Positions 27,090 to 43,534 of a DNA stretch of 64,000 bases are shown in pieces. The stretch comes from Dehalococcoidia bacterium (GTDB lineage: Bacteria > Chloroflexota > Dehalococcoidia > Lucifugimonadales > UBA3495), in NCBI GenBank assembly GCA_963667675.1, contig OY763929.1:622358-686357 (forward strand), in the 5' to 3' direction. Both the position numbers and the translations under genes were made by a program. The notes below the pieces were generated by a model. That model saw only the letters and a program-made list of their open reading frames with translations. It was not told where the DNA came from and did not search any database. Within the stretch, counting starts at the first letter, position 1. Each line of letters starts with the position of its first letter.

Positions 27090-27210
27090 AAAAAAGTAGA
27101 GGACAGGCCGTAGCCTGCCCCCTCATTTGTTGCCATAAGGCTTGTTAACGGAACCTCCCCGATCTCCCATCGGATATAATACCGTTTCAGCCTCTCGGCA
27201 AAGCCTCTAA
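27090..27210 (-). ncRNA. Predicted tracrRNA (divergent from cas9)
   Basis: The minus strand at 27180-27144 reads AUUAUAUCCGAUGGGAGAUCGGGGAGGUUCCGUUAAC. This is complementary to the minus-strand crRNA repeat GUUGCGGUUCCUCCCCGAUCUCCCAUCGGCUAUAAU, with a 17-nt perfect core plus a bulge and mismatches. It is followed by AAGCC… and a GC hairpin, GGGCAGGC-UACG-GCCUGUCC, then a U6 tract (the A-run at 27090-27095). The 5' end is not determined. A candidate TGGTATACT extended -10 lies on the minus strand at 27218-27226. Confidence 0.7.
27175..27180 (+). promoter_or_regulatory. Candidate -10 box (TATAAT) for cas9, derived from the repeat-like sequence
   Basis: The plus strand of the anti-repeat region is a degenerate copy of the CRISPR repeat. 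It ends in TATAAT about 70-80 nt upstream of the cas9 start. No clear -35 is present. Confidence 0.35.
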
Positions 27211-27258
27211 CTTGGTGAGTATACCACCGCTTAAATCTAACTGCAAACGGTGACGGCA

Positions 27259-30200: not shown

Positions 30201-30495
30201 ACAGTTCCGCCCCCACGCCGATGCCAAGAAGCTCTTCAGAATTCAAATCGACGACATGGGAGCCCTGGGCGATGGAGCTGAGCGCCGTATTGTGCGCGTC
30301 AGGAAAATCACCAACGCAACATCTGGCGCATTCGTAGTATTGGATGAACACAATCAAGCTAATGTGGCAGACCGTGTAGGAAAAGACATGAAAGAAAATA
30401 GGTACTCTGCCCGGCAACTCAAGCAGTTGGGGTTCCGCAAAGTCGGCGTAGACGAAATCGGCCGCGTGCTGGACCCCGGCCCCCGCAACCCATGA
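27259..30495 (+). CDS. cas9: Cas9 endonuclease, type II-C-like (about 1078 aa)
   Basis: It has RuvC-I YRLGLDLGTNSIGWA, an Arg-rich bridge helix RMARGQRRRRDRYLERRR, RuvC-II VVVELTRD, HNH EVDHILPYSRTLDNSPSNMVVCIAAANRFKGDRSP, and RuvC-III DDHRHHAVDAFVVA. An alternative start is GTG 27250. Confidence 0.95.
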   Translation: MTNVKDKKYRLGLDLGTNSIGWAAVSLDDNDEPCGVLGMGVRIFPDGRDAQSKTSNAVDRRMARGQRRRRDRYLERRRDLMDALVEFGLMPQDAEQRKDLQTLDPYALRAKALDEPLEPSELARALFHLNQRRGFKSNRKADTDEVEGRSLSERIGELRRQMQETSARTLGEFLYRRRVNSETVRARPDLRLYPDRAMYLEEFCKIRAAQKPHQPLTPDQWDKLKEIIFHQRPLEPVDPGWCQFEYENDEKRAAKALPVFQEFRILQEVNNIRVRVGSQPERRLDERERGAVLARLRSGKDIDFGKLTGDLRKLLAEADFNLALGGREKIKGDETTARLASSPQPAKGDKPAKPGLFGDKWLNLPIDRRNEIVKFLLNTEDPDKVREKAIQEWGLNTAQADAVARVSLVAGYGSLSEKAINKLLPHLEGGMRYDEAVKKEYKHHSDFRNEEAHDSLPYYGKVLPRDAVGANSKKAPEIDGEVARYGRFPNPTVHIGLNQLRRVVNRLIEAHGKPQDVVVELTRDLKLNPQQKRDLLKQQREGGQSNIRFTEMLQSMGQDVTPNVLRKLRLWEEQGPPQARVCPYTGRRLSCEMVVSEQTEVDHILPYSRTLDNSPSNMVVCIAAANRFKGDRSPDEAFSSNPQNYSYQEILDRVAKFPDNKKWRFQPDAMKRFEEDDRFLDRQLNETSYLSRTAKNYLAYLYDEKGEGRTRVRAAPGRMTALLRRGWCLEGMLRTSPEGEITRKQRDDHRHHAVDAFVVACTTQGLLQKFARAAGASHNSEERLAALAGETPPWEGFDRNKLKPFLGKIVVSYKPDHGTRGAKTKSTTGQLHKETAYGLVEFSENGPSKVVTRKKLDAVKKRKDLESVRDSVMRDALLKLWDDVAREGGEVGSFSDRAAKEGVLLEKGRRQTVRRVRVLDKQTVIPIKRGKGHPEVGKPYKGYLLGGNAWADMWQMPDKQKTWKMVVVPTFHANQPGFKLEQFRPHADAKKLFRIQIDDMGALGDGAERRIVRVRKITNATSGAFVVLDEHNQANVADRVGKDMKENRYSARQLKQLGFRKVGVDEIGRVLDPGPRNP

Positions 30496-31403
30496 TTGGC
30501 CGCGTCATCGAAATAGCCGGCGAGGGCCGCCACCTCGCCCGCAGCCGTGGCCTGATGACCGTCTCCCAGGACGGCGCTGAGGTCGGGCGCGTGCCCTTGG
30601 ACGACATCGGCGTCCTCCTCTGCAACGCCCGCGGCCTCACCTACTCCAACGACCTGATGACCGAGCTTGCCCACCGCGGCGCCTCGGTGGTGATGTGCGG
30701 CGACAGGTTCCTCCCCGTGGCCTGGGTCTGGCCCTTGGAAGGCCACCACGTCCAGGCCCTGCGGATGCGCCGCCAGTTGGAGGCTGGTCTCCCCCTTCGC
30801 AAGCGCCTCTGGCAGGCCCTCGTAAAGGGAAAAATCACCCAGCAGTCCAACGTGTTGAAGCTGCTGGAAGTTTCCGGCGGCAGCCTTGATGCCCTGGCGC
30901 AGCGGGTCAAGTCCGGCGACCCCGGCAACGTGGAAGCCCAGGCCGCCAGGCTGTACTGGCCCATGCTCTTCGGCAGGAACTTCAGGCGGGAACGTTTCGG
31001 CCCCATGCCCAACCCCCTCCTCAACTACGGCTACACCGTCCTGCGCGCCTCCGCCGCCCGCGCCTTGGTCGCCTCCGGTCTCCACCCCTCCCTGGGCATC
31101 CACCACAGCAACCGTACCAACAGCTTATGCCTGGTGGACGACCTCATGGAGCCATTCCGCCCCTTTGTGGACTACGTCGTCTCCGTGCTGGTATCCAACC
31201 AGCGCGAGGAAATGACCATCGAGGTCAGGCGCGACCTCGCCTCGGTCCTGGTAATGGACCTCGCTACTGACCGTGGGACCACTCCCCTTCAGACCTGCCT
31301 GGAACGCGCCGCCCAGTCCCTGGCCCAGTCCTTCGAGACCGGCAAGCCGGAACTGGTTCTACCCGACCGGCTCATCTCCCGCGGCCTGCCTGCCATTGCC
31401 TAG
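30492..31403 (+). CDS. cas1: CRISPR-associated endonuclease Cas1 (type II)
   Basis: The 303-aa ORF has an ATGA overlap with the cas9 stop. It shows a Cas1 alpha-helical domain pattern (NPLLNYGYTVLR…GLHPSLGIHH…LVDDLMEPFRPFVD). Confidence 0.95.
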   Translation: MIGRVIEIAGEGRHLARSRGLMTVSQDGAEVGRVPLDDIGVLLCNARGLTYSNDLMTELAHRGASVVMCGDRFLPVAWVWPLEGHHVQALRMRRQLEAGLPLRKRLWQALVKGKITQQSNVLKLLEVSGGSLDALAQRVKSGDPGNVEAQAARLYWPMLFGRNFRRERFGPMPNPLLNYGYTVLRASAARALVASGLHPSLGIHHSNRTNSLCLVDDLMEPFRPFVDYVVSVLVSNQREEMTIEVRRDLASVLVMDLATDRGTTPLQTCLERAAQSLAQSFETGKPELVLPDRLISRGLPAIA

Positions 31404-31427
31404 CCGTCATCCCGGCCCTACTCTTTC

Positions 31428-31502
31428 GTCATTCCGGCCCCCGAGCCGGAATCCAGGGAATCCCCATGCCCAACCGTCTTTCCGGCGGAAGCCGGAATCC
31501 AG
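31428..31502. repeat. 75-bp double-hairpin repeat element, copy A (between cas1 and cas2)
   Basis: The sequence is gtcattCCGGCccccgaGCCGGaatccagggaatccccatgcccaaccgtctttCCGGCggaaGCCGGaatccag. It differs from copy B at 3 positions. Confidence 0.85.
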
Positions 31503-31603
31503 AAGCGTAATAAACCATCACCTCAATGAGCGCAAGGAAGTGTGTATATCCCCCCTTCGCAAAGCGCAAGGGGGCTAGGGGGATGCCCCGCCCCCACTTT
31601 CCA

Positions 31604-31678
31604 GTCATTCCGGCCCCCGAGCCGGAATCCAGGGAATCCCCATGCGTAACCGTCTTTCCGGCGGAAGCCGGAATCTAG
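31604..31678. repeat. 75-bp double-hairpin repeat element, copy B (between cas1 and cas2)
   Basis: This is a direct repeat of 31428-31502, offset by 176 bp, with the same two GC hairpins. Confidence 0.85.
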
Positions 31679-31786
31679 GAACTGGACCCCAGGTTGAAAG
31701 ACGCCCATGCACCCTCCCAAATTCATGCCCTTGAGAAATTGCCTAAATGTCTCCGTTCTGCCGGGCAGCGGCTGAGGCATTAGGCC

Positions 31787-32113
31787 GTGCTTTCCGGCTA
31801 CCGTCTCATGTGGATGATGGTCCTGTTCGACCTGCCGGTCCTCACCGATAAGGAGCGGCGGGCCGCCAATAAGTTCCGCAACTTCCTGATGGACCAGGGT
31901 TTCGACCGCTGCCAGTTGTCCGTCTACCTGCGCTTCTGCGCCGGCAAAGAGCAGGCCCAGGTCTATACCAAGCGGGTCCAGGGGGCATTGCCCGAATCAG
32001 GCGACGTCCAGATTATCTACTTCACCGACAAGCAGTACGAAAACATCGTCAGTTTCAGCGGGCCAAGGCGGCGACCGGCCAACAATAATCCGGAGCAATT
32101 CACCCTGTTTTGA
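31787..32113 (+). CDS. cas2: CRISPR-associated endoribonuclease Cas2
   Basis: The 108-aa ORF has a GTG start and an N-terminal beta-strand MWMMVLFDLPV with the conserved Asp. Its position just before the array supports the call. Confidence 0.9.
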   Translation: MLSGYRLMWMMVLFDLPVLTDKERRAANKFRNFLMDQGFDRCQLSVYLRFCAGKEQAQVYTKRVQGALPESGDVQIIYFTDKQYENIVSFSGPRRRPANNNPEQFTLF

Positions 32114-32140
32114 CGCCGCTGGGGACGGTTTTTCAAAGGG

Positions 32141-32181
32141 AAAAAGCTACCCGGCCAAACCTGTCGCCAAGCTGGGCCGGG
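32141..32181 (-). terminator. Candidate terminator for minus-strand CRISPR transcripts
   Basis: On the minus strand, CCCGGCC-(18 nt loop)-GGCCGGG is followed by UAGCUUUUU. It lies between the last transcribed repeat and cas2. There is no T-run on the plus strand. Confidence 0.4.
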
Positions 32182-32189
32182 CACCCTCT

Positions 32190-33603
32190 ATTATAGCCGA
32201 TGGGAGATCGGGGAGGAACCGCAACGATGTCCGACGGCATCCGGTAGTTGGGCTGATTATAGCCGATGGGAGATCGGGGAGGAACCGCAACGGACCGGGC
32301 TGCGCTGCCTAGCATTGCGGAATTATAGCCGATGGGAGATCGGGGAGGAACCGCAACAGCAGTTTCGGGGGTTAGCGTGGGCCGCAAATTATAGCCGATG
32401 GGAGATCGGGGAGGAACCGCAACCTCAGATAGTTTTGCTTGTTCGGGCCGTTCATTATAGCCGATGGGAGATCGGGGAGGAACCGCAACTCAGCTTTCTC
32501 ATGGTCGTGCCATCGGTTCATTATAGCCGATGGGAGATCGGGGAGGAACCGCAACGCGCCAAGTATTAGGGGAAATACGGGCATATTATAGCCGATGGGA
32601 GATCGGGGAGGAACCGCAACAGGTTACGGGATACGCTAGGCTTTTACTTTATTATAGCCGATGGGAGATCGGGGAGGAACCGCAACTAGGCTTACTCCGT
32701 CTCGATAGTTCTGATTATAGCCGATGGGAGATCGGGGAGGAACCGCAACCCATCGTGTGAGGCATGGTCCGCCAAGGCCATTATAGCCGATGGGAGATCG
32801 GGGAGGAACCGCAACCAAATCATCAGGCGCTTGTCCTTGGCCGCATTATAGCCGATGGGAGATCGGGGAGGAACCGCAACGGTCCTCATGTGGCACCCCG
32901 CGCCGGCCGGATTATAGCCGATGGGAGATCGGGGAGGAACCGCAACTTCACCGCGGTGGTAGCCGCACTGGGCGATATTATAGCCGATGGGAGATCGGGG
33001 AGGAACCGCAACCTCCTGTGTGACTTTAAGGATTGGCCAGCGATTATAGCCGATGGGAGATCGGGGAGGAACCGCAACTGGATTATGAGCCGGGGTTCAA
33101 GCTGGTCCATTATAGCCGATGGGAGATCGGGGAGGAACCGCAACGCTACAATCAGCGTCCCCACGGTTAGCGACATTATAGCCGATGGGAGATCGGGGAG
33201 GAACCGCAACTAAAGGTCGTGATGCCTGTGCTCCGGTCCATTATAGCCGATGGGAGATCGGGGAGGAACCGCAACTAGCTGGCCGGTCAAGGTCTCGACG
33301 GCCTGATTATAGCCGATGGGAGATCGGGGAGGAACCGCAACTAGCTGGCCGGTCAAGGTCTCGACGGCCTGATTATAGCCGATGGGAGATCGGGGAGGAA
33401 CCGCAACTAGCTGGCCGGTCAAGGTCTCGACGGCCTGATTATAGCCGATGGGAGATCGGGGAGGAACCGCAACACCGGAATGGTGATGAGCCTTACCCTG
33501 GCCATTATAGCCGATGGGAGATCGGGGAGGAACCGCAACGCATCGCGATGACTATGGTCCCTGCCTTATTATAGCCGATGGGAGATCGGGGAGGAACCGC
33601 AAC
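32190..33603 (-). CRISPR. CRISPR array with 22 identical 36-bp repeats and 21 spacers
   Basis: The repeat on the plus strand is ATTATAGCCGATGGGAGATCGGGGAGGAACCGCAAC. Its reverse complement is GTTGCGGTTCCTCCCCGATCTCCCATCGGCTATAAT. Sixteen spacers are 30 nt, three are 29 nt, one is 28 nt and one is 27 nt. The minus-strand call rests on the GTTG…TATAAT repeat form, the tracrRNA complementarity and the terminator at 32141-32181. Confidence 0.97.
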
Positions 33604-33696
33604 ACGGCCTGATGAAGACGCCAGCAGCAAGTAGAGAAGAAGCCCTGGGCGCTGAACGGAGGAGATTGCGTAAACCCCGCCGCAGGCCGGAGAAAT

Positions 33697-34035
33697 TCAA
33701 GACCCGTCGTGGGTCTGGTCGATGCGGACTATGTCGGCCTGAATCACCGCCATGGCCTGCATCATCCGTTGCAGCGTCTCATCCCGGCGCGCGCTGGAAT
33801 CTTGTAGTTGACGGACAGCCTCATCCGTTCCACGGACTGCTTCATCCGTTCGCTGGACCGCTTCATCCATTCGCCGGACCGCTTCATTCATTCGTCGTAC
33901 AGCCTCAATCATTCGCTCCACCGCTGCTCTCGTTCGCTTCTGGTCCTCATCTATCAGCGCAATCATGTCGGTGGCGTACCGGGTGAATTCTTCCAGGTTG
34001 CCGATCCGGTCTTCCATGCCAGCCTTGCCCTCCAC
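33697..34035 (-). CDS. Hypothetical coiled-coil protein with heptad (21-bp) tandem repeats
   Basis: The 112-aa ORF contains EAVRRM(N/D)-type heptads. They are encoded by five 21-bp tandem units at 33813-33917. No family was recognised. Confidence 0.45.
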   Translation of the reverse strand: MEGKAGMEDRIGNLEEFTRYATDMIALIDEDQKRTRAAVERMIEAVRRMNEAVRRMDEAVQRTDEAVRGTDEAVRQLQDSSARRDETLQRMMQAMAVIQADIVRIDQTHDGS

Positions 34036-34164
34036 TTCCGCGGTTCCCTTGGCGGTCGCGCCCTGCGGGTGTCAGAACAGCATTATAGCCCATGACCCGG
34101 CTGGGAAAAACACAACCATGTCACCCCGAACCATACCCCACTGCTCCCCCGACCTACCCCCACT

Positions 34165-34273
34165 GTCACCCCGAGCGCAGCCGAGGGGTCTAAAGCCCTT
34201 GCCCGCCGCGCATCTTTCCTCTCCGTCCGCCGCGTGCCTTCTCCACCCGTTCGCCCTGAGCGTGTCGAAGGGC
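34165..34273. repeat. REP-like palindromic element cluster (type A variant plus type B)
   Basis: It holds gtcACCCCGAGcgcagcCGAGGGGTctaaag at 34165-34195 and cgttcgccctgagcgtgtcgaagggc at 34248-34273. Confidence 0.65.
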
Positions 34274-34578
34274 AAACCCACACCCCGGAAAATGCCCCCA
34301 ATCCTGTCTATCCCATCAATCCCATGAATCCCAGTTCAGACCGCCACTGACATTTCCTCGTTGACGCACCCCAGGCCCAGGCCATAAGCTAGTATCATGT
34401 CGTTTGCACCTCAACCACCAACCCGCAAGGGCGTGCCTGCCGGCCCGCTGCCGGAATCATCCCTGTCCCTTCTATCGAGGGCCGAATACCCCGCGGCGAC
34501 ACCGGATTCGCCGGAAAGGCGAAATGGGACCCAGTGGGACGGAAGTAAAAATTTTAGCCATTAACGAGTCCAACCTGT

Positions 34579-34608
34579 AATGTCGCAAAATGTCCCAGAA
34601 TGTCCCAG
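34579..34608. repeat. Three tandem 10-bp units upstream of glnA
   Basis: The units are AATGTCGCAA, AATGTCCCAG and AATGTCCCAG. They lie about 170 bp upstream of the glnA ATG with helical-turn phasing. Confidence 0.3.
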
Positions 34609-34773
34609 CCGCAAGAAAACCCCTTGAACCGAGACACATTGCCGGCTCCCCAGGCCCCAAATGAGAGCGAATGAGGGGAACCATGCCGCCGCCGGCGTAG
34701 CCCTGAGGTTTCCTCTAAATTCGCTGGCGGGTACAATAGTGGCATCCTGGGCTTCCCCCAAGGAGGGTTCGCA

Positions 34774-36111
34774 ATGGCAGAAAACGGCGCCGCCGAGAGG
34801 GACTTCGTCCTGAGGAGCGCGCGGGAAAACGACGTCAAGTTCGTCCGCCTCTGGTTCACCGACATATTGGGTAACCTCAAGGGCTTCACCATCGACGTAG
34901 ACGACCTGGAAGACGCCATTGAGCAGGGCGTGGGCTTCGACGGCAACGCCATTGAAGGCTTCGCCCGTATCGGTGAGAGCGACATGCGGGCCTTTCCCGA
35001 CCCCTCCACCTTCGCCGTGCTGCCGTGGAGGCCCCGCCAGAACGCCGTGGCCCGGATGTTCTGCGACATCCGCTCCCCCAGCGGCGACCCCTTCATCGGC
35101 GACCCCAGATACGCCCTCAAGCGCAACCTGGAAAGGCTGGCCCAAGCCGGGTTCACCTACTACGTCGGTCCCGAGTTGGAGTATTTCTACTTCCGCGACT
35201 CCGATTCCGCCCAGCCCCTGGACTCCAGCGGGTACTTCGACCAGCTCTCCAGCCAACCCGCCAACGACCTGCGCCGGGACACCGTGCTCAACCTGGCCGA
35301 CATGGGCATTCCCGTCAAATACTCCCACCACGAAGGGGCGCCCAGCCAGCACGAGATAGACCTCCAGTACACCGACGCCCTGACCATGGCCGACAACGTC
35401 ATGACCGCCAAGCTGGTCATCAAAGAACTGGCCCAGCAGCGGGGCGCCCATGCGTCGTTCATGCCCAAGCCCATTGCCGGCAAAAACGGCTCAGGCATGC
35501 ACACCCACCAGTCCCTGTTCCGAGGCAACAAGAACGCCTTTTTCGACCACGACGACGACCACCGCCTGTCGCTCGTCGGCAAACGCTTCATCGCCGGGTT
35601 GCTCCGCCACGCCCCCGAAATCACCTTGGTGACCAACCAGTGGGTGAACTCCTACAAGCGCCTGGTCCCCGGCTACGAAGCCCCCGTATACGTGTCCTGG
35701 GCCCACGTGGACCGCTCGGACCTGGTCCGGGTGCCCTCATACAAGCCGGGCTACGAGAATTCCATGCGCGTCGAATACCGCGCCCCAGACCCCGCCTGCA
35801 ATCCCTACCTGGCCTTCAGCGCCATGCTGGGCGCGGGAATGCGCGGCGTCGAGGAAGAGTACCCGCTGCCGCCCCAGGTGGAGGGCGACGTCAACGCCAT
35901 GACTCACGACGAGCGCCTGGCCCGGGGCATCAAGACCCTGCCGGGGAGCCTCAGCGAAGCCATAGCCGAGGCCGAAGACGGAGAACTTCTCAGGAACACC
36001 CTGGGAGAACACATCCTGAACAGCGTCATACGCAACAAGCGAATGGAGTGGGAAGAATACCGGGCCACCGTCACCGACTACGAAGTCGCCCGCTACCTCC
36101 CGACACTCTAG
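34774..36111 (+). CDS. glnA: Glutamine synthetase, type I
   Basis: The 445-aa ORF has VKFVRLWFTDILGNLKGF, HHEGAPSQHEI and NGSGMHTHQSLF motifs. Confidence 0.95.
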   Translation: MAENGAAERDFVLRSARENDVKFVRLWFTDILGNLKGFTIDVDDLEDAIEQGVGFDGNAIEGFARIGESDMRAFPDPSTFAVLPWRPRQNAVARMFCDIRSPSGDPFIGDPRYALKRNLERLAQAGFTYYVGPELEYFYFRDSDSAQPLDSSGYFDQLSSQPANDLRRDTVLNLADMGIPVKYSHHEGAPSQHEIDLQYTDALTMADNVMTAKLVIKELAQQRGAHASFMPKPIAGKNGSGMHTHQSLFRGNKNAFFDHDDDHRLSLVGKRFIAGLLRHAPEITLVTNQWVNSYKRLVPGYEAPVYVSWAHVDRSDLVRVPSYKPGYENSMRVEYRAPDPACNPYLAFSAMLGAGMRGVEEEYPLPPQVEGDVNAMTHDERLARGIKTLPGSLSEAIAEAEDGELLRNTLGEHILNSVIRNKRMEWEEYRATVTDYEVARYLPTL

Positions 36112-36191
36112 CCCCGCCGCCGCTCCCTGGATTCGGTTCCGAGCCGGAGTGATGGGGTTAGCTGGGTGCCGTCCTCGCCGCCAACTAGATA

Positions 36192-36581
36192 TTAGCTTAC
36201 TTGATATACAAAAGTAAGCTCGGATGAGCAGTCATAGATATTAATAGTGCCCAATGCGTAGTATTCCGCATCGTATCCACGTATATCTCTTGCTGTGAAG
36301 TCTACTCTAATTATCCTGTCACCTGAAGAGCCACCTCTGTCTGCAATATTAGTTTTAATATTACGCATACTGTGAGGCACTATTTCTCCATATATGCGTA
36401 TGAGGCCTATAAAGCTCTCATGGTCTCCACTAAAACTTAGGCAGTGCTCTCCTTCTACTGATTCATCTACTGCACTATTTTCATTGTCATTGCTGTTATC
36501 AGCAGTTATAAATCCTATGATAAACAGCAGTACCATGCCCCCAATAATTACAAGGCATCCAGTCTTTAGTGGTGACTGCAA
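36192..36581 (-). CDS. AT-rich ORFan, membrane-anchored hypothetical protein (129 aa)
   Basis: It has an N-terminal TM helix (CLVIIGGMVLLFIIGFI). Its composition is strikingly A/T-rich relative to the flanks. No family was recognised. Confidence 0.5.
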   Translation of the reverse strand: MQSPLKTGCLVIIGGMVLLFIIGFITADNSNDNENSAVDESVEGEHCLSFSGDHESFIGLIRIYGEIVPHSMRNIKTNIADRGGSSGDRIIRVDFTARDIRGYDAEYYALGTINIYDCSSELTFVYQVS

Positions 36582-36612
36582 ACAAGGCCCCCTCGCAACA
36601 AAGAGTTGTGGA

Positions 36613-36713
36613 GACTTAGCCGGTCACCAAAACCCAGCGCAGATTACGAGGGGACATGAAGCACAACCCCTTGTAAATCTGCGCAAATTGGCTACTGTAT
36701 GACCGGCTAAGTC
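36613..36713. other. Nested extended inverted repeat (about 101 nt hairpin)
   Basis: The outer arms are a perfect 14-bp pair, GACTTAGCCGGTCA (36613-36626) and TGACCGGCTAAGTC (36700-36713). The inner arms are GCGCAGATTACGAGGGG (36637-36653) and CCCCTTGTAAATCTGCGC (36667-36684), with one wobble and one bulge. Confidence 0.6.
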
Positions 36714-36844
36714 GAGGGGAGTATAGCTATAAGTTACCTCTAGTGTCAATCAAATTGAGGCACTACCGTGCTTTGATCCCTCCTTGATTCGCTGGTTGGC
36801 CGGCTCTTACACTGTGAAGGGGAAGCGTACCTAGGTTGGTAAGG

Positions 36845-39800
36845 CTACAGACCGAATTTCGCAATGATTCCTTTGAGTTCTGTCTTCGTTTCCTCGTCCA
36901 AGGGCGTTTGGAGCAATTGGTCAATGATAGGTTTCGCTCCGTGCCACATAAACTTTTCGGCGTCCGCCTCGCCAAGTCGGATTAGTAGCTTCGCGAGTGA
37001 ACACGGATACCTAGAGGGTATGTCAGAGTCGGTAAGCCCGAAGAGCAGGTGATCCGGCGGCATCGGCACCACAAGCATATTGAGCGCTAACCCGACTGCC
37101 TCCGGGTAGACCGCCGTTAGGCTGTTGGTCCACTCGAGCATCATCTCTATTTCCTTATGGTCCAGTGGCGCTGGAATACCGTCAAGACGATTTTCCCAGT
37201 ATCCTCTGAGCCAGGTGTTCCACCATTCTAGTTGTGCGGGCTCGTCCAGAGACCGTAGGTGGAATACGATTTCACGTGTAAATTGTTGCCTGACGTCCTG
37301 GTCGGTGCCTGCTATTAGTTTGGTAATCCATTGGTCGGAAGGGCCGGACACAAACCAAGTGAGCAACGAGGTGTATCTCGTGATAAATCTTTGTTTCGTT
37401 GCTGGCGTCATCCTGTCGTCGATGTATTTGACTGTTTCTAAGAACGGGTCTCTTAGCAGTTCGGCGACCGTTGGGTTGAATTGCGACGCGTACGATATGC
37501 CTTCCCATGCGCTTTCGAATTCTTGGTGGTTACGTTCCAGTAGTGGTATCAAGTTTCGCTTAGACCACTCTTCGTCCACCGCCGTTAGAAACGAAATTTG
37601 TGAAGTGAATATTACCCTGGCAAGCTTTCCAGGCAATTCGTGGTCCGCCATTATCGTCGCCAGTACATCCTGGTATTCGATACTGAGCGCTGCCGGCAAC
37701 GCCCTTTGGTGTTTCCTCCATAGGGCGATGCTATGCAGCCAGAATTGAGCGAGCCTTCCTGAAAGGTGGTTCATGGCTTTGGTAAGCCAATCTACTTCTT
37801 CTTGAACTCCTCCGACGTATCGAGTTATTTCGGGTGCGTCAACCGTGCCTGCATAACTATGCAATTTCATGGCGATAGCGTTGGCCTGGGAAAGAAATTC
37901 TGAGATCTTCGAGCCAGTGAATTTTGGGGCTATGCTGCATATTGCATCGGCCATCTCCCTAGTGTGATTTAGGCATAGCTCGTCGTTATCGAGACAGTCC
38001 AGAACTTGGCGAATGTCATCCTCATCTAACTCCGCGTTCGCCCAAGCACTCATAAGACAAGGCCAGAGGTCAGCATCCCACCGGCCCATACTGGCCATTT
38101 CACGCGCCAAATTGAAACCCCAATCAAAGTTTTCCTGCGCAGCTTCCTTAACAGTAGTCAACAAACCTACTCTGCTGCCACTGTCGAGAAATACCGTTGG
38201 TTGATATTCAAGTAACTCCGTCAACAATTCTTTCGCAGGTTTCGCTAGTAGTTCCTCAACTGACAGAGGGCTACTAGCTCGTGTCCATGTTCCTGTCGTC
38301 CAATGCATCAGGAGGTCCGGATGCTCGCGTTGGAGAAATTCCGGGTAGCGAATAAGGATGGCTTCCACAGCTTGTTTAGCCTGAGAGCAATCCGGATCAG
38401 CGTCCAATAGCCAGTGCAGCCATGTGAAACGGCTATAATCCTCCTCGCCCTCTTTGTGCTCATCCTCTTGGTTTGGTCGCCTAAACGACTGGATAGCCTG
38501 GATAAGAGTCTCTCTCACTGCAAAGCCCGCTTTTGGATATGCTTTGCCAATCGCTTGGAAGATTTCATGATGGGTAACTATGTCATGCAAGTTACAATGC
38601 TCCAGCAGCCAGGATATTTTCTCGTCTGCTGGCATATCAATCCACGACAGTGCGTGAATCGCCAGTCGGCGTAGCAGCGGTGCTTCTGAGTCGTTGTAGC
38701 GTTCAGACCACGACTTCACCATATCCGGTTGGTTGACAGCAAGCCATTCGAGGCAGTCCCTTGCAATGTCTATAAGTGCATCAACGCCTCGAGGATATTT
38801 GTCCTGTTCGTGGGGTTCGATAGCGGAGCGCGATAACGTGTCGGAATCCAGTAGGCGCTTACCTTCCCATGCGTTTATTAACGAGTGACGCTCTTCCAAT
38901 CTAAAGGCGGTTTTCTCGAGCAGCGATTCAGCTATTTTCGGCAAGTTGGGTTTCAGGCACTTCTCCCATAAGGGTTGGATGTGGTGGTCAAAGAGGTCTG
39001 AGTTGCGTCTGAAAGACCGCGGGTTGGTTATGCCGCGGCTTTCTGTCATCGAGTCGTAGATTTGCAACAAATTGACCAGCAACCCTTGGCTGGCGCAGTT
39101 TTCGGCCATCTTCTCCAACAGGATATACTTGGAAAAATCCGAGGGAGCTGCGCTTAACAAGAAATGGGCCCATCGGGAAAGGGTCCGTTCATCCGCCTGG
39201 CGTTCAGCGCCTACGCCCATCTGCCACGTAATCTTATTCCACAACGCCGGATTGAGCCTTGGACCGTGGCGTTCTATAAGAGAAAACAGTGCCTTGGGTT
39301 CCTTAGCGGCAAAGCTGCCCAACCACGCGGCCAGCAAACTCTTTTCTTCTGTAAGGTCGCCGTAGGAAAACAGGGCATCGAGATAATTGCGATTGTCCAG
39401 CCAATCGACCCATTCCAGCGATTTCGCTTTCTCAATGAAAAAGCGGGTATATACCGGATCGGCGAGGGCATGTTCTATTACGCCAACGGATTCTTCATCA
39501 AGGGGTGGCGGCCCGGAGGCAATACTGGTGATTTTTTGTTGCCAGTCTAGTATGCCGCGTCGTAAGTAATTTGCGAGGCCTGATACCGCCTCGAACAGTC
39601 CGCTGTAGTCGTCCTCGTCCTCTTGTGGGAATACAATGGGATATATGCCCAAATTGCGCCAACGCTCCGGCTCATCGCTCCGACTGCCAACAAGGGCATA
39701 GCGCCGGTCGCTGTCATCCCTTGGCAGAGATGGAGTCAAGTACGTCATTATCGTGTCATTGTGGCTGTAGCCCACGAACAGTACGATGTGCCTTGCAAAA

Positions 39801-40354
39801 AGGTCTACCAGGAAGCGTCGCGCCCAACCGTCGGATTCGGTCAGGTAAGCCCGGCCAAAGTCTTGACTGGTGAGCACCATTTCTTCAGGTTCGGTCACCG
39901 ACCCGTGGACATGCACAATGCCCCGAAATCGCCGGCCGTAGGGCAGTGCCGGGGCTAGGAACACTCTTGATGAGGTGCCTAGCTCTTTGGCGGACTGCTC
40001 AAACAGCAAATCGAAATTGGTGGTGACGATTCGCACATCTTCGGGTCTCCTGACCAATTTCAGCAGGTCGCGGTGAAGTTCCGTCGGCTCAGGATTGTGC
40101 TTCTGCAACAGTTCCGCAGCGCGTTTGTGGACATCGGCGCCAGTGGTTTTCAATCGATTCAAGAACCGGTCTTCCGGCTCTTGCTCGTCGATAGCATGTC
40201 CGCTTCCTTCGGATATTTGGTGGGTGAGCTTGGGGAAGTCCGGCAAGTTGGCTGGGGCTCCCATGGAGACGCCGGCGCCGGCAAAAATAACCAGATCACT
40301 GTCACGTAGGGCGTTCAGCAACTGGTCCGGGAAATTGACACCTTTGATGTTCAT
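36845..40354 (-). CDS. SIR2-domain protein with a large C-terminal helical domain (defence-associated sirtuin, DSR-like)
   Basis: The N-terminal ~250 aa match the SIR2_2 pattern: LVIFAGAGVS, VTTNFDLLFE, IVHVHGS, VLTSQDFGRAY and LFVGYSHND. About 900 aa of helical, repeat-like sequence follows with no recognisable family. The gene sits in a lower-GC islet. Confidence 0.8.
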   Translation of the reverse strand: MNIKGVNFPDQLLNALRDSDLVIFAGAGVSMGAPANLPDFPKLTHQISEGSGHAIDEQEPEDRFLNRLKTTGADVHKRAAELLQKHNPEPTELHRDLLKLVRRPEDVRIVTTNFDLLFEQSAKELGTSSRVFLAPALPYGRRFRGIVHVHGSVTEPEEMVLTSQDFGRAYLTESDGWARRFLVDLFARHIVLFVGYSHNDTIMTYLTPSLPRDDSDRRYALVGSRSDEPERWRNLGIYPIVFPQEDEDDYSGLFEAVSGLANYLRRGILDWQQKITSIASGPPPLDEESVGVIEHALADPVYTRFFIEKAKSLEWVDWLDNRNYLDALFSYGDLTEEKSLLAAWLGSFAAKEPKALFSLIERHGPRLNPALWNKITWQMGVGAERQADERTLSRWAHFLLSAAPSDFSKYILLEKMAENCASQGLLVNLLQIYDSMTESRGITNPRSFRRNSDLFDHHIQPLWEKCLKPNLPKIAESLLEKTAFRLEERHSLINAWEGKRLLDSDTLSRSAIEPHEQDKYPRGVDALIDIARDCLEWLAVNQPDMVKSWSERYNDSEAPLLRRLAIHALSWIDMPADEKISWLLEHCNLHDIVTHHEIFQAIGKAYPKAGFAVRETLIQAIQSFRRPNQEDEHKEGEEDYSRFTWLHWLLDADPDCSQAKQAVEAILIRYPEFLQREHPDLLMHWTTGTWTRASSPLSVEELLAKPAKELLTELLEYQPTVFLDSGSRVGLLTTVKEAAQENFDWGFNLAREMASMGRWDADLWPCLMSAWANAELDEDDIRQVLDCLDNDELCLNHTREMADAICSIAPKFTGSKISEFLSQANAIAMKLHSYAGTVDAPEITRYVGGVQEEVDWLTKAMNHLSGRLAQFWLHSIALWRKHQRALPAALSIEYQDVLATIMADHELPGKLARVIFTSQISFLTAVDEEWSKRNLIPLLERNHQEFESAWEGISYASQFNPTVAELLRDPFLETVKYIDDRMTPATKQRFITRYTSLLTWFVSGPSDQWITKLIAGTDQDVRQQFTREIVFHLRSLDEPAQLEWWNTWLRGYWENRLDGIPAPLDHKEIEMMLEWTNSLTAVYPEAVGLALNMLVVPMPPDHLLFGLTDSDIPSRYPCSLAKLLIRLGEADAEKFMWHGAKPIIDQLLQTPLDEETKTELKGIIAKFGL

Positions 40355-40482
40355 CTACCTCGACCGCTCCTTTGCAATCACCCCTTCCTCCCACCCTGTA
40401 CGTGATTCGGAAATCTTGTCCAAACGCCCGCCGCTTGGCTCTTCAAGCACCTTGTAGCTTTACAAGACTTCCGCGAGAATAT

Positions 40483-41517
40483 CTACCCCACTTCCACGGA
40501 AACCCCGCGCTCCATCGACTCGTAAGCCTTCAGCACCACCGACAGCGCCGCAATCCCCGCCTCGCCAGAGGTCAGCGGTTCCCTCCCTTCCAGGATGCTG
40601 CTCCGAAACTCCCGTACCATTGGGACCAACCCGTAATGGGCGGGTTCCAGCGCCACCGTGCGCTGTTCCCGGCCGTCATCCCACGTCAGCGTAAGTTGTT
40701 CCTCGCCGTCACCCGACGCCAGCCGGAACGCGCCCATTTCAAAGTACAGACGCCCCCGCATCCCCGATACGGATACCCACTGCGGCCCCGGACTCTTGGC
40801 CGCGGTCCAGGAATGGTTGACTACCCCCACCACACCGTCGGCTGTCTTGGTCACGATCACCGCGCCGTTCTCGACCTCTCCGGCTGCTGGGCCGGCCGGC
40901 AGAGAGGCGGCGAACACCTGCCGTGGCATGCCCGACAGGTAGACCAGGATGTCCACCTTGTGAATCCCGCCGTCTATCAGCACCCCGCCTCCGCTCGAAC
41001 TGCGTTGGCCCCTCCATTCTTCGGAGACCATTGCCGCTTCTTCCTGGAGCTGGACCAGCCGCAGGTCGCCCAGGGCGCCTGATTCAATAATCTCCCTGGC
41101 CTTGCGCACCCCGGTCATGAAACGGTAGTTCTCAGCGACCATGAGTGTCACGCCCGCCCGCCGCGCCTCCGCCACCATGTCGCGGGCCTCTTCAATAGAC
41201 AGGGCTATGGGCTTTTCCACCAAGACGTGCTTGCCGGCCCGCGCCGCCATGACGGCCTGTTCCCGGTGCAAGTGGTGGGGCGTACAAACGTACATGGCCT
41301 GCACCCTCGGGTCCGCCGCGGCCTCCTCGTATGAGCCGAAGGCCCCGCTGCCGCCGTAGGCCTCCGCAAAGGCTTGGGCGCGGCCCAAGTCCCTGCTGGC
41401 AAAGAACAACTCCACCTCGCCCCTCATATACCCCATTGCCCGAGCAAAGGTCTTGGCGAAACTGCCGCATCCCACTACGCACAACGACAGCTTTATGCTT
41501 TGGCTCCCGCGCGGCAA
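40483..41517 (-). CDS. Gfo/Idh/MocA-family oxidoreductase
   Basis: It has an N-terminal Rossmann motif VVGCGSFA and the EKP motif (VLVEKPIA). Confidence 0.85.
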   Translation of the reverse strand: MPRGSQSIKLSLCVVGCGSFAKTFARAMGYMRGEVELFFASRDLGRAQAFAEAYGGSGAFGSYEEAAADPRVQAMYVCTPHHLHREQAVMAARAGKHVLVEKPIALSIEEARDMVAEARRAGVTLMVAENYRFMTGVRKAREIIESGALGDLRLVQLQEEAAMVSEEWRGQRSSSGGGVLIDGGIHKVDILVYLSGMPRQVFAASLPAGPAAGEVENGAVIVTKTADGVVGVVNHSWTAAKSPGPQWVSVSGMRGRLYFEMGAFRLASGDGEEQLTLTWDDGREQRTVALEPAHYGLVPMVREFRSSILEGREPLTSGEAGIAALSVVLKAYESMERGVSVEVG

Positions 41518-41518
41518 C

Positions 41519-43534
41519 TTAGTTCACCCGCCTCACTGCCAGTGTATATTCCGCTTCCTGACGCGTCTTCGGCGCCACGGCGGCTACCGCCACCACCAGC
41601 TTCTCCGACTCCGCAGGCGCGGCAATGACCACCGAACCCGAATTGCTCTCGTCCAACCGCATCTGAGTCACTCTATTGACCTGCCCTGCCTCGATCACTT
41701 GCACGATATAGTCCTGCTCCACGCTGTTGTCGGTAAGCGCGAACCCTTCAGCGGTCCATCCATCCAAGTCCATCGAAACGCCCAACTCTGGGATGGAAAC
41801 ACCTCTCACGCAAATCCCGGAACCGTGTATCGCATCGTCGGTAACATAGTGGAACCGCAGCAGGACTTCCTGCCCCGCGTAGCGGGTGAGATCGACGCTT
41901 TCGTCGATCCAGCCGCGGCTGTCGCCAGTATAGCCCATCCCAAAGTTGTTCCCGATTGGATTATCAGCCGAGGTATGAGGCGTCTCCAAGATATCCCACC
42001 TCTTTCCGCCATCCACTGATACTTCCAGATACCCGTAGTCCCAGTCTTCTTCTACCTCGAACCATATCTGGTATTCCAGAGTAGCCCGGCCCAACGCTGT
42101 TAGGTCCACCGGCCTAGTCAGCGTGGAACTAATGGAATCCCCCAGGTTGCTCCACCAGCAGCCTCTGGAGTCTACTTCCACTGGCAGCAGCCGGTTCTGC
42201 GCTGGCGCATTGAACTGTATCTCCAACGGCTCGTCGAAAGAGTCCAACGTCGCATATTCCACGGCGTATTGCGGGATGCGCGATCTCAACGCCGAGAAAT
42301 TGGTGATGGACCTGGTGCGTCCAATTCCCACCTCCAGCGCGGAGTAGCCGTAGACGCCATGGTCTTCATCCAGCACGTTGGCTGCCGCCCAGTCCCCGAA
42401 TAAGTCCGAGAAAGTAGCTCCGTGACCGGAGCTTTGCAAGTAGGCGTCGACCCCCGCAATGCCGTCCGCCGGCTCTTCCAGCAGCGGCCTCACGTTGCTG
42501 AAGTCCCCATAGTGATCGACAAGGTAATGCATGAACAGGGAAGCAGCCCCGTAGTTCGCTCTCGAGCCCACTGGCGACAGCGGCCAGTGCACCACTGAAG
42601 TCGGTGGAGACCGCAAAAAGCGGTAGATGCTGGACTGGCCGAACCCGGCAACGGTTACCGCCACCTCCGCAAGCCCCTCGTTGACCCACGTTTCTTCGGA
42701 AGGGTCGGCATTCCAGTGCACCGCGTGCTGCAGTTCATGGGTCAGTACTTCTAGATACGCCGGAGAGTCCACGGGAATCGCTTCGGCGTTGATGTATATC
42801 ATTTCTCGTTCATTGCTGAACGGCCTGATGCTGGTGGGATACTCGTCGGTGGAACTGAAATAGCCTCCTACCCCCCTCAACCGGGCGTTGACTATGTTCA
42901 AGTGAGGATCGTTGTCCACCCCCGGCGTCCACTCGCGGCCGAAGGCGCTGGCGATCTTGGGGTAAATCTCATCCTCGAAACGCTCGGCAGTCCGTTCCAG
43001 GGCGGCCTGGCGAACAGGCAGCCCCTCCTCGAAATACCAGTAGGCGTGGGGCGTCACCAACCGCAACTCGAACCTGCTGGAATACACCTCCAAGTCCAAT
43101 ATGTCCACCAGCCAGAATGTGTCCTGTCTACCCGCGGCATAGCTCACCGGCGCAGGATTCACCACCCTGTCTCCATCTCCCACGTCGACCCCTTTGAGTT
43201 CGGCCGTCAGCCGGTACAGGTCCCGCTCCGGAGGTTCTGGGAACCTAGTACCCGGGAACCGCTCCGGGATTGCGGACGCCGGAGTTGGGGCGGCGGCGGC
43301 CAACGACTGCGACGGCGTTACCGGTATTGAGGTAGCTAAGGGCGCGGGAGAGGTCGGGAGGACTGTAGAAACTACAGTATCCGCCGCCGTCTCGGTTGAC
43401 GGGGTATCGGTCTGGGTAGGAGCAGCTAACGGGGTCGCGGCGGGCCCACTGGCGTCATTGCACCCGGCCAGCAGGACGGCCAGGAGAATGACGGGTATGT
43501 AGTGGTAAGGGCGCATTCCCCGTCGATTCATCAA
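41519..43534 (-). CDS. Putative secreted lipoprotein zinc metallopeptidase (MA-clan gluzincin-like)
   Basis: It has a lipobox LLAGC and a Thr/Pro-rich linker. The motif HELQHAVHW…WVNEGLAE matches the HExxH…NEGxAE gluzincin pattern, as in M1-like peptidases. Confidence 0.65.
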   Translation of the reverse strand: MMNRRGMRPYHYIPVILLAVLLAGCNDASGPAATPLAAPTQTDTPSTETAADTVVSTVLPTSPAPLATSIPVTPSQSLAAAAPTPASAIPERFPGTRFPEPPERDLYRLTAELKGVDVGDGDRVVNPAPVSYAAGRQDTFWLVDILDLEVYSSRFELRLVTPHAYWYFEEGLPVRQAALERTAERFEDEIYPKIASAFGREWTPGVDNDPHLNIVNARLRGVGGYFSSTDEYPTSIRPFSNEREMIYINAEAIPVDSPAYLEVLTHELQHAVHWNADPSEETWVNEGLAEVAVTVAGFGQSSIYRFLRSPPTSVVHWPLSPVGSRANYGAASLFMHYLVDHYGDFSNVRPLLEEPADGIAGVDAYLQSSGHGATFSDLFGDWAAANVLDEDHGVYGYSALEVGIGRTRSITNFSALRSRIPQYAVEYATLDSFDEPLEIQFNAPAQNRLLPVEVDSRGCWWSNLGDSISSTLTRPVDLTALGRATLEYQIWFEVEEDWDYGYLEVSVDGGKRWDILETPHTSADNPIGNNFGMGYTGDSRGWIDESVDLTRYAGQEVLLRFHYVTDDAIHGSGICVRGVSIPELGVSMDLDGWTAEGFALTDNSVEQDYIVQVIEAGQVNRVTQMRLDESNSGSVVIAAPAESEKLVVAVAAVAPKTRQEAEYTLAVRRVN

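What the first reader, a model, noticed from the sequence alone, without database searches (positions are those of the whole stretch)
36845..40354. 1169-aa SIR2-domain protein in a low-GC islet as a candidate defence-associated sirtuin (DSR-like) NADase
The first ~250 residues carry the SIR2_2 signature in order: FAGAGVS, TTNFD with the conserved Asn, HVHGS with the catalytic His, VLTSQDF and FVGYSHND. They are followed by ~900 residues of helical sequence without a recognisable domain. This single-gene architecture, an N-terminal SIR2 plus a large C-terminal sensor, is that of DSR1/DSR2 anti-phage systems. Those systems deplete NAD+ on sensing phage proteins. The gene lies in a compositionally distinct ~4.4-kb insert between glnA and a Gfo/Idh/MocA oxidoreductase, which is consistent with horizontal acquisition. 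The C-terminal domain may recognise a new trigger.
Basis: partly seen in the sequence, partly recalled or inferred. Interest (0 to 1): 0.7.

Follow-up and report, generated by a model that had tools for sequence, protein, structure and literature searches.

The report
Distant Dsr1-type anti-phage sirtuin gene
This is an intact single-gene phage-defence protein of the known Dsr1 type (an NAD+-destroying SIR2 enzyme fused to a large helical phage sensor), acquired horizontally by an uncultured Dehalococcoidia bacterium. It is a divergent but ordinary member of a large, already recognised family.

Summary
N113 and H150 align with the ThsA catalytic residues N112 and H152 and are invariant in 91 homologues.

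The gene lies in a 4371-bp low-GC insert (GC 0.51 against about 0.61-0.62) exactly between glnA and the Gfo/Idh/MocA gene. In the closest relative found, those two genes are about 88 bp apart.

The DSR-like interpretation is supported and can be narrowed to Dsr1-type, not DSR2-type. PADLOC Dsr1 HMMs match at E 1.6e-72. A profile-profile comparison with PGAP-certified Dsr1 gives probability 100%, E 2.8e-57, over 1111 columns end to end.

The C-terminal region is therefore not domain-less. It hits DUF4020 and is homologous to the Dsr1 sensor, which a 2026 preprint reports senses phage major capsid protein.

The protein is not an equivalog of canonical Dsr1: 24% identity, and NCBIfam 255 bits against a 1400-bit cut-off. 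It belongs to a large SIR2_2-DUF4020 clade (more than 3400 hits). All six sampled members sit in different defence or mobile contexts, with no conserved partner gene.

NADase activity, defence and trigger are inferred, not shown.

Verdict: new member of a known kind, of modest interest.

The parts
36845..40354 (-). Dsr1-like gene, 1169 aa plus stop codon
   Evidence: ORF listing. PADLOC Dsr1 E 1.6e-72. NCBIfam Dsr1 is the only hit, at 254.7 bits. hhalign against certified Dsr1: probability 100%, E 2.8e-57, 1111 columns.
39515..40354 (-). N-terminal SIR2 (SIR2_2) NADase effector domain, residues 1-280
   Evidence: Pfam SIR2_2 at residues 108-240, E 2.5e-21. PDB sequence matches to ThsA and other SIR2 NADases. 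Alpha/beta fold in the model. Foldseek TM 0.66 to the DSR2 SIR2 chain 8wyc_D. It is the most conserved part of the protein, at 1.05 bits entropy against 1.65 for the sensor.
40016..40018 (-). Codon of predicted catalytic Asn113 (TTNFD motif)
   Evidence: Aligns with ThsA N112. Invariant in A1 and A3. Coordinates verified.
39905..39907 (-). Codon of predicted catalytic His150 (HVHGS motif)
   Evidence: Aligns with ThsA H152. Invariant in A1 and A3. Coordinates verified.
38846..39514 (-). Helical middle region, residues 281-503. This is the part most diverged from canonical Dsr1, which carries extra residues (insertions) here; canonical Dsr1 is about 100 aa longer overall.
   Evidence: A canonical-Dsr1 HMM does not align residues 337-503. 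hhalign bridges the region only with long insertions on the Dsr1 side. Helical in the model.
36848..38845 (-). C-terminal alpha-solenoid sensor, residues 504-1169, homologous to the Dsr1 sensor
   Evidence: BLASTP 511-1117 against Dsr1 623-1215, E 8e-8. HMM domain 504-1124, iE 1.5e-16, and the reverse search at 2.5e-26. Foldseek finds HEAT/karyopherin-like solenoids and DSR2. 1921 cluster representatives share this sensor.
37088..37333 (-). Pfam DUF4020 match, residues 1008-1089
   Evidence: E 1e-5, 25.8 bits against a gathering score of 22.7. Present in nearly all family members. Not detected in certified Dsr1.
36112..40482 (.). 4371-bp low-GC insert between glnA and the Gfo/Idh/MocA gene
   Evidence: GC 0.512 against 0.608 and 0.623 in the flanks. 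L148 (glnA 82% identical) has GFO and glnA about 88 bp apart; L135 and L139 also have them adjacent. No flanking direct repeats, integrase or tRNA were found.
40355..40482 (-). Upstream intergenic region, presumed to hold the promoter of the Dsr1-like gene
   Evidence: Assigned by position only. The sigma-70 consensus scan found no site here.
36613..36713 (-). 101-nt near-perfect hairpin downstream of the Dsr1-like stop codon. It could be a terminator or the leader of the next ORF.
   Evidence: 14-nt perfect outer arms. The spacer folds with z = -4.2. Unique in the window. No Rfam match.
36192..36581 (-). Orphan 129-aa ORF with an N-terminal membrane helix. It shares the islet but is probably not part of the system.
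   Evidence: No homologue among 5.8 billion proteins. No family hit. GC 0.40 and GC3 0.33. Not found next to any of six homologues. It has its own near-consensus promoter at 36749->36720.

Best explanation
The gene encodes a single-protein anti-phage system of the Dsr1 type. The N-terminal SIR2 domain, with catalytic Asn113 and His150, is an NAD+ hydrolase kept inactive in uninfected cells. The C-terminal ~650-residue alpha-solenoid, together with a helical middle region, is the sensor. When the sensor binds a phage-made protein, the enzyme is released and cellular NAD+ falls, which blocks phage replication. By homology with E. coli Dsr1, the trigger is most likely newly made HK97-fold major capsid protein. 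The gene arrived by horizontal transfer as part of a 4.4-kb low-GC insert in the glnA-GFO intergenic spot of an uncultured Dehalococcoidia genome, beside a type II CRISPR-Cas locus. Shown here: the architecture, the intact catalytic motifs, full-length homology to Dsr1, the insertion, and the defence-island contexts of relatives. Inferred: NADase activity, the defence phenotype, the activation mechanism and the identity of the trigger.
For: Family scans: PADLOC Dsr1 HMMs at 1.6e-72, 6.1e-55 and 1.2e-22, and NCBIfam Dsr1 as the sole hit. Full-length homology: BLASTP to two PGAP-certified Dsr1 proteins gives two collinear segments, 5-395 at 31% identity (E 4e-36) and 511-1117 at 21% (E 8e-8). 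hhalign gives probability 100%, E 2.8e-57, over 1111 columns. The HMM domains for effector and sensor are each independently significant. Catalytic site: N113 and H150 align to ThsA N112 and H152 and are invariant in 91 sequences spanning both clades. Structure: pLDDT 86 model with SIR2 plus helical solenoid. The best Foldseek hits are DSR2, then ThsA, then HEAT solenoids. Horizontal acquisition: GC and GC3 contrast, and relatives have GFO and glnA adjacent without the gene. Defence association: six of six homologues lie beside different defence or mobile genes, including NACHT plus CBASS, type ISP and type I R-M, Shedu, Abi_2 and transposases. The window copy lies about 3 kb from a CRISPR-Cas9 locus. 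Function of the family: DSR1 depletes NAD+ on infection (Garb et al., bioRxiv 10.1101/2021.12.14.472415). The EcDsr1 sensor is shared with Avs7 and is triggered by phage major capsid protein (PMC12803255).
Against: The protein is only about 24% identical to experimentally studied-type Dsr1. It scores 254.7 bits against the 1400-bit NCBIfam equivalog cut-off. Its middle region (337-503) does not align with a canonical-Dsr1 HMM. Canonical Dsr1 lacks the DUF4020 match. At 21% sensor identity, trigger specificity cannot be transferred safely. No member of this clade is known to me to have been tested. No promoter was detected upstream. The closest relatives available are distant (glnA at most 82% identical), so the timing of acquisition is unknown. 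The capsid-protein trigger comes from a preprint.
Confidence: 0.8

Rival explanations
1. It is a Dsr1-type NADase, but its diverged sensor recognises something other than the major capsid protein. That could be a different phage protein or a host perturbation, so the SIR2_2-DUF4020 clade would be a functionally distinct Dsr1 subtype.
For: Sensor identity to canonical Dsr1 is only 21-24%. The middle region does not align. Within the clade the sensor varies more than the effector (1.65 against 1.05 bits), with the peak at residues 751-840. The preprint itself notes that alternative activators exist for related sensors.
Against: Homology is collinear across the whole sensor, with conserved Trp, Arg and PHxQ positions shared by both clades. 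[quoted passage not shown]
Confidence: 0.3
2. It is a DSR2-type system that senses phage tail tube protein.
For: DSR2 structures are the top Foldseek hits (E about 4e-9), and they share the SIR2 plus alpha-solenoid layout.
Against: DSR2 matches the family profile only over residues 11-203, the SIR2 domain, at E 8e-4. Global TM is 0.18-0.23. No PADLOC Dsr2 model appears among the hits, whereas three Dsr1 models do.
Confidence: 0.03
3. It is a housekeeping or regulatory sirtuin (a protein deacylase or ADP-ribosyltransferase) with no role in phage defence.
For: The SIR2 fold is shared with deacetylases. Weak profile matches to human SIRT3 cover the first 30 residues.
Against: It belongs to the SIR2_2 subfamily, whose best matches are defence NADases. 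It is absent from relatives and compositionally foreign. Homologues sit in defence islands.
Confidence: 0.04
4. It works as a two-gene system with the downstream 129-aa membrane ORF, for example as a sensor-NADase plus membrane effector.
For: Both genes are on the same strand in the same low-GC insert, 263 bp apart.
Against: The ORF has no homologue anywhere and is absent beside six homologues. Its composition differs (GC3 0.33 against 0.58), and it has its own promoter. Dsr1 is a single-gene system.
Confidence: 0.04
5. It is an inactive relic of a former defence gene.
For: No promoter was found upstream, and there is no expression data.
Against: The 1169-codon frame is uninterrupted. Every residue that is invariant in the family is retained, since invariant columns are scored with this sequence included. 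The model is confident.
Confidence: 0.05

Closest known systems
Dsr1 (defense-associated sirtuin 1; EcDsr1 WP_029488749.1, NCBIfam NF041818, PADLOC Dsr1)
   Same: Single gene. N-terminal SIR2_2 domain with the same catalytic Asn and His. Collinear homology over the whole length, sensor included. Similar size (1169 against about 1275 aa). Found in variable defence contexts.
   Different: About 24% identity. About 100 aa shorter overall, with a middle segment (337-503) that a canonical-Dsr1 HMM does not align. Scores far below the equivalog cut-off, at 255 against 1400 bits. Carries a DUF4020 match that certified Dsr1 lacks. Canonical Dsr1 is a tight, mostly proteobacterial clade at 80% identity or more. 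This protein belongs to a much more diverse clade with 45-63% identity among its top hits, and its host is a Dehalococcoidia bacterium.
DSR2 (Bacillus subtilis; PDB 8k98, 8wyb and others)
   Same: SIR2 NADase fused to an alpha-solenoid sensor. Best structural match in the PDB.
   Different: Sequence similarity is limited to the SIR2 domain. The sensor is unrelated by sequence. DSR2 senses tail tube protein.
Avs7 (STAND NTPase with the same TPR-like sensor; PMC12803255)
   Same: According to the preprint, the Avs7 and Dsr1 sensors are homologous and both respond to phage major capsid protein.
   Different: This protein has no STAND NTPase domain, since no P-loop family is detected. Its effector is SIR2, not Cap4. 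Homology of this protein to Avs7 itself was not tested because no Avs7 sequence was at hand.
ThsA (type I Thoeris effector; PDB 6lhx)
   Same: Closest solved SIR2 domain by sequence, with the catalytic Asn and His aligned.
   Different: There is no SLOG domain and no ThsB/TIR partner gene nearby. The C-terminal region is unrelated.

Membership tests
Dsr1 | N-terminal SIR2_2 domain with conserved catalytic Asn and His | tested here: met
   Pfam SIR2_2 at E 2.5e-21. N113 and H150 align with ThsA N112 and H152 and are invariant across both clades.
Dsr1 | Large C-terminal helical sensor homologous to that of Dsr1, in a single polypeptide of about 1150-1280 aa | tested here: met
   hhalign probability 100%, E 2.8e-57, over 1111 columns end to end. 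The sensor-only HMM domain gives iE 1.5e-16, and the reverse search 2.5e-26.
Dsr1 | Match to the PADLOC Dsr1 profile HMMs | tested here: met
   PDLC04167 at 1.6e-72, PDLC02183 at 6.1e-55 and PDLC04166 at 1.2e-22. PADLOC's own coverage rules and DefenseFinder could not be run.
Dsr1 | NCBIfam NF041818 equivalog score of at least 1400 bits, meaning the same function as canonical Dsr1 | tested here: not met
   254.7 bits. It is therefore filed as Dsr1-like, in the broader family, and not as an equivalog of EcDsr1.
Dsr1 | Stand-alone gene with no conserved partner, found in variable defence or mobile contexts | tested here: met
   The six homologue contexts are all different, and each contains defence or mobile genes. 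The gene is absent from relatives at this locus.
Dsr1 | NAD+ depletion on phage infection, and phage protection dependent on the SIR2 active site | not testable with these tools
   Requires experiment. Known for DSR1 from Garb et al. and PMC12803255.
Dsr1 | Activation by phage major capsid protein | not testable with these tools
   Reported for EcDsr1 only. No co-folding tool or coordinates were available here.
DSR2 | C-terminal domain homologous to the DSR2 MID/CTD that binds tail tube protein | tested here: not met
   The family profile matches DSR2 chains only over residues 11-203. Global TM is 0.18-0.23.
Thoeris ThsA | SIR2 fused to a SLOG domain, with an adjacent ThsB (TIR) gene | tested here: not met
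   No SLOG match. The neighbours are glnA, an orphan ORF and GFO.
SIR2-HerA | Short SIR2 protein with an adjacent HerA ATPase gene | tested here: not met
   The protein is 1169 aa and has no HerA or ATPase neighbour.
Avs (STAND) with SIR2 effector (Avs5) or Avs7 | Central STAND NTPase domain | tested here: not met
   No P-loop, NACHT or AAA family reaches significance in Pfam. The only such hit, AAA_lid_RFC1, has E 0.31.

The most novel reading that the evidence does not exclude
The SIR2_2-DUF4020 clade to which this protein belongs may be a functionally distinct Dsr1 subtype. It has about 1900 cluster representatives, differs from canonical Dsr1 in its middle region, and shares only 21-24% sensor identity. 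Its sensor may recognise a trigger other than the HK97-fold major capsid protein, or capsid proteins of phage groups that infect Chloroflexota and that canonical Dsr1 does not see.
Probability: 0.3. Interest if true: 0.45.

Novelty: new member of a known kind. Interest (0 to 1): 0.27.

Why it matters
The finding adds a Dsr1-type NAD+-depleting defence gene, next to a complete CRISPR-Cas9 locus, to the little-studied immune repertoire of uncultured Dehalococcoidia. It also shows that the experimentally studied, tightly conserved proteobacterial Dsr1 is one small branch of a much larger and more diverse SIR2-sensor family. About 1900 clusters at 50% identity share this sensor. PGAP's Dsr1 equivalog model does not reach them, and NCBI records for such proteins read 'SIR2 family protein'. 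If the sensor-trigger relationship reported for EcDsr1 holds across this clade, it would extend capsid sensing to many phyla. If it does not, the clade is a source of new specificities. Neither outcome would change current understanding of how defence sirtuins work.

Tried and rejected
(1) The exact-sequence look-up of the window protein's contig found nothing. The cluster look-up gave no accession or name, so I could not check whether the protein is listed in the preprint's supplementary tables.

(2) PDB sequence searches with the full protein, the merged family profile and the sensor regions alone found no solved relative of the sensor. Foldseek against viral predicted structures found nothing at E below 1e-3.

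(3) Rfam found no family in 31000-41600. That covers the 101-nt hairpin and the CRISPR region.

(4) I searched for flanking direct or inverted repeats, tRNA genes or integrases that could explain the insertion. Only short, chance-level repeats turned up, and there is no tRNA within 20 kb.

(5) The 129-aa ORF has no Pfam, PADLOC or NCBIfam hit and no homologue at all. Its single-sequence model is too poor for a fold search (pLDDT 46). It is unrelated to a 128-aa ORF in the same gap in L139.

(6) Ten shorter sensor-bearing proteins were scanned for alternative effectors. All are SIR2- or DUF4020-only proteins or fragments, and none has a different effector.

(7) The genome-collection scan with glnA and the metagenome scan with GFO found no near-strain relative (best 80-82% and 63%), so the age of the insertion could not be estimated.

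(8) The supplements of Garb et al. held no mention of DSR1, so the accession of the DSR1 protein tested in B. subtilis could not be recovered.

(9) A literature search for 'DUF4020' returned no paper.
Full report
**Observation**

The ORF at 36845-40354 on the minus strand is real and encodes 1169 residues.
- FAGAGVS at residues 24-30
- TTNFD at 111-115
- HVHGS at 148-152
- VLTSQDF at 160-166
- FVGYSHND at 193-200

Pfam assigns SIR2_2 to residues 108-240 at E 2.5e-21.

GC falls from about 0.61-0.62 in the flanks to 0.512 over 36112-40482, a stretch of 4371 bp. Third-position GC is 0.58 for this gene and 0.33 for a small ORF beside it, against 0.72-0.87 for eight surrounding host genes. The flanking genes are glutamine synthetase (34774-36111, +) and a Gfo/Idh/MocA oxidoreductase (40483-41517, -).

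The C-terminal ~900 residues are not devoid of recognisable domains. Pfam DUF4020 matches residues 1008-1089 above its gathering score, and a PADLOC Dsr1 model aligns residues 509-968.

**What it is**

All three curated libraries point to the same family:
- PADLOC gives three Dsr1 models as its top hits, at 1.6e-72, 6.1e-55 and 1.2e-22. ThsA and other SIR2 models follow far behind.
- NCBIfam returns only NF041818, 'anti-phage defense-associated sirtuin Dsr1'. The score is 254.7 bits against an equivalog cut-off of 1400.

To see what that gap means, I fetched two plasmid genes that PGAP annotates as Dsr1, from Pantoea (L001) and Nitrosococcus (L002). BLASTP against them gives two collinear segments:
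- residues 5-395 at 31% identity (E 4e-36)
- residues 511-1117 against Dsr1 623-1215 at 21% identity (E 8e-8)

I then built two alignments, one of 74 members of the window protein's own family (A1) and one of 18 canonical Dsr1 proteins (A2). Comparing them profile to profile gave probability 100%, E 2.8e-57, with 1111 aligned columns from one end to the other.

A local HMM of canonical Dsr1 aligns the window protein in two independently significant pieces, 4-336 (iE 2.6e-35) and 504-1124 (iE 1.5e-16). The reverse search gives 5e-52 and 2.5e-26. The homology therefore does not rest on the SIR2 domain alone. Only the middle segment, about 337-503, fails to align, and canonical Dsr1 carries extra residues there.

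The protein is thus a distant, full-length relative of Dsr1 at about 24% identity. It is not an equivalog of the canonical protein.

**The family**

The word-indexed search found more than 3400 relatives. The best 120 are almost all 1150-1180 aa, 45-63% identical, and carry SIR2_2 plus DUF4020.

An exhaustive search with the sensor region alone (residues 290-1169) found 1921 cluster representatives at E of 1e-3 or better, and 758 at 1e-30 or better. In nearly all of the top 150, the sensor starts near residue 290 of a protein of about 1170 aa. The few shorter hits are sensor or SIR2 fragments rather than fusions to other effectors.

Canonical Dsr1, by contrast, is a very tight clade, with 80% identity or more across many proteobacterial genera. 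It does not reach the DUF4020 model. The window protein therefore belongs to the larger, more diverse and, as far as I can tell, experimentally untouched part of the Dsr1 superfamily.

**Active site and structure**

In the HMMER alignment to Bacillus cereus ThsA (6lhx), N113 pairs with ThsA N112 and H150 with ThsA H152. From my own knowledge of the ThsA literature, these are its catalytic residues. PDB entry titles also name the equivalent DSR2 mutant, H171A.

G26-A27-G28, T112-N113 and H150-G151 are invariant in the 74-sequence family alignment. They stay invariant when 17 canonical Dsr1 sequences are added.

The AlphaFold2 model built on that merged alignment is confident, with mean pLDDT 86.1 and pTM 0.70. 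It shows an alpha/beta domain to about residue 280, followed by an all-helical region with a single beta-hairpin at 844-853.

Foldseek against the PDB ranks the hits as follows:
- DSR2 first (E about 4e-9; the isolated DSR2 SIR2 chain gives TM 0.66)
- ThsA next
- then HEAT-type solenoids such as karyopherins, CAND1 and condensin subunits

By sequence, DSR2 matches only across residues 11-203. The resemblance to DSR2 is therefore one of layout, not shared sensor ancestry. No solved structure related to the sensor is detectable by sequence.

Within the family, the effector domain is more conserved than the sensor (mean column entropy 1.05 against 1.65 bits). The most variable stretch is at residues 751-840. 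This is the pattern expected of an immune receptor.

**Horizontal acquisition**

The glnA-anchored scan of representative genomes identifies the host as an uncultured Dehalococcoidia (Chloroflexota) bacterium. The closest glnA there is 80% identical. None of the 80 relatives has a homologue of the SIR2 protein within 10 kb.

In the four closest of these genomes, glnA is followed within about 45 bp by the InhA-like protease and then Pth.

A metagenome scan with the Gfo/Idh/MocA protein recovered L148, which has a glnA 82% identical. There the order is Pth, InhA-like, GFO, and then convergent glnA, with only about 88 bp between GFO and glnA. L135 and L139 also have GFO next to glnA.

I found no flanking repeats, integrase or tRNA that would explain how it arrived. 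Because the nearest relatives are distant, the age of the insertion is unknown.

**Defence association**

Six homologues were examined in their own contigs. All six lie among defence or mobile genes, and every context is different:
- a NACHT STAND protein and a CBASS CD-NTase plus Cap15 pair
- a type ISP restriction enzyme and Abi_2
- Shedu (SduA_C) with several transposases
- a type I R-M operon immediately upstream
- SMC/Metallophos and methyltransferase genes
- DUF6932 and NucS_C proteins

No partner gene recurs, as expected for a single-gene system. In the window, a complete type II CRISPR-Cas locus lies on the other side of glnA.

**How it most likely works**

The mechanism is inferred from the family.

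DSR1 depletes NAD+ in infected cells. In the case studied, it blocked phage phi29 with only transient NAD+ loss and without culture collapse (Garb et al., bioRxiv 10.1101/2021.12.14.472415). DSR1 and DSR2 are described as proteins whose C-terminal domain detects the phage and activates the N-terminal SIR2 domain (bioRxiv 10.1101/2024.02.11.579819).

A 2026 preprint reports that the EcDsr1 sensor is homologous to the TPR-like, bilobed sensor of Avs7. [quoted passage not shown] For Avs7, the sensor clamps a capsid protein monomer through broad shape complementarity.

By homology, the window protein should behave the same way: sensor binding of a phage structural protein, release of the SIR2 NADase, NAD+ depletion, and a failed infection.

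My confidence in each step:
- Dsr1-type assignment: about 0.9
- NADase-based defence: about 0.8
- capsid protein as the trigger: no more than about 0.5, given 21-24% sensor identity and the unaligned middle region

**Rivals considered**

- DSR2-type: rejected, because the sensors are not homologous by sequence.
- A non-defence sirtuin: unlikely, given the subfamily, the insertion and the contexts of relatives.
- A two-gene system with the adjacent 129-aa ORF: unlikely. That ORF has no homologue anywhere, is absent beside six homologues, differs in composition and has its own promoter.
- A decayed relic: unlikely, given the intact frame and the retention of every residue that is invariant in the family.

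The live alternative is a Dsr1-type protein with a different trigger.

**Novelty and verdict**

This is a new member of a known kind. The architecture, the family and the probable mechanism are all already described, and standard defence-annotation HMMs recognise the protein. Three points give it modest interest:
- the host lineage
- its distance from the canonical clade
- the fact that this large clade is annotated only as 'SIR2 family protein'

The protein is Dsr1-type rather than generically DSR1/DSR2-like. Its C-terminal region is a recognisable Dsr1 sensor whose likely trigger is already proposed in the literature.

Noticed in passing
window 27154-33603: A complete type II CRISPR-Cas locus in a Dehalococcoidia genome. 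It has an anti-repeat (tracrRNA candidate) at 27154-27180, matching 26 of 27 bases of the reverse complement of the repeat. It also has cas9 (27250-30495, 1081 aa), cas1 (30492-31403), cas2 (31787-32113) and an array of 22 exact 36-nt repeats (32190-33603). The locus is absent within 10 kb of glnA in the closest relatives.
   Followed up: partly
window 33271-33468 (CRISPR spacers 17-19): Three consecutive spacers are identical (TAGCTGGCCGGTCAAGGTCTCGACGGCCTG), so one repeat-spacer unit is triplicated in tandem inside the array. No spacer matches elsewhere in the window at up to 4 mismatches.
   Followed up: partly
window 36192-36581 (-): An orphan 129-aa ORF sits in the most AT-rich part of the islet (GC 0.40, GC3 0.33). 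It has an N-terminal membrane helix and an RBS-like GAGGGGG. It has no homologue among 5.8 billion proteins and no family hit. The single-sequence structure model is poor, at pLDDT 46.
   Followed up: yes
window 36613-36749: A 101-nt near-perfect hairpin (36613-36713, with 14-nt perfect outer arms) lies between the Dsr1-like stop codon and the orphan ORF. Immediately before it on the minus strand is a near-consensus promoter (TTGACA-18-TATACT, 36749->36720). The spacer folds with z = -4.2. The hairpin is unique in the window and has no Rfam match. Its role is undecided: terminator, leader or remnant of a mobile element.
   Followed up: partly
window 38801-38821 (residues 512-518, IEPHEQD): A PHxQ motif (H515, Q517) in the sensor is invariant in all 91 sequences spanning both the window clade and canonical Dsr1. 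So are R563, W645, W764, W930, W1053 and R1056. It could be a structural hinge or a contact with the SIR2 domain.
   Followed up: no
window 33697-34035 (-), tandem repeat 33810-33915: A 21-bp tandem repeat (5 copies) lies inside a 112-aa ORF between the CRISPR array and glnA. It encodes reiterated EAVRRM(N/D) units. There is no significant family match.
   Followed up: no
L006-L009, L148, L135, L139 compared with window 36112-41518: The region downstream of glnA varies among relatives. Four genomes have glnA followed directly by the InhA-like gene, with no GFO. Three metagenome contigs have GFO-glnA gaps of about 88, 584 and 870 bp, the last containing an unrelated 128-aa ORF. This suggests the spot repeatedly gains and loses genes.
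   Followed up: partly
P0247, P0248, P0289, P0306, P0338, P0339, P0354, P0359 (one search hits): Several database proteins of about 920-1000 aa carry the sensor and DUF4020 but have no SIR2 domain, with the sensor starting at residue 36-116. They may be truncated gene calls or genuine effector-less sensors. The two possibilities were not distinguished.
   Followed up: partly
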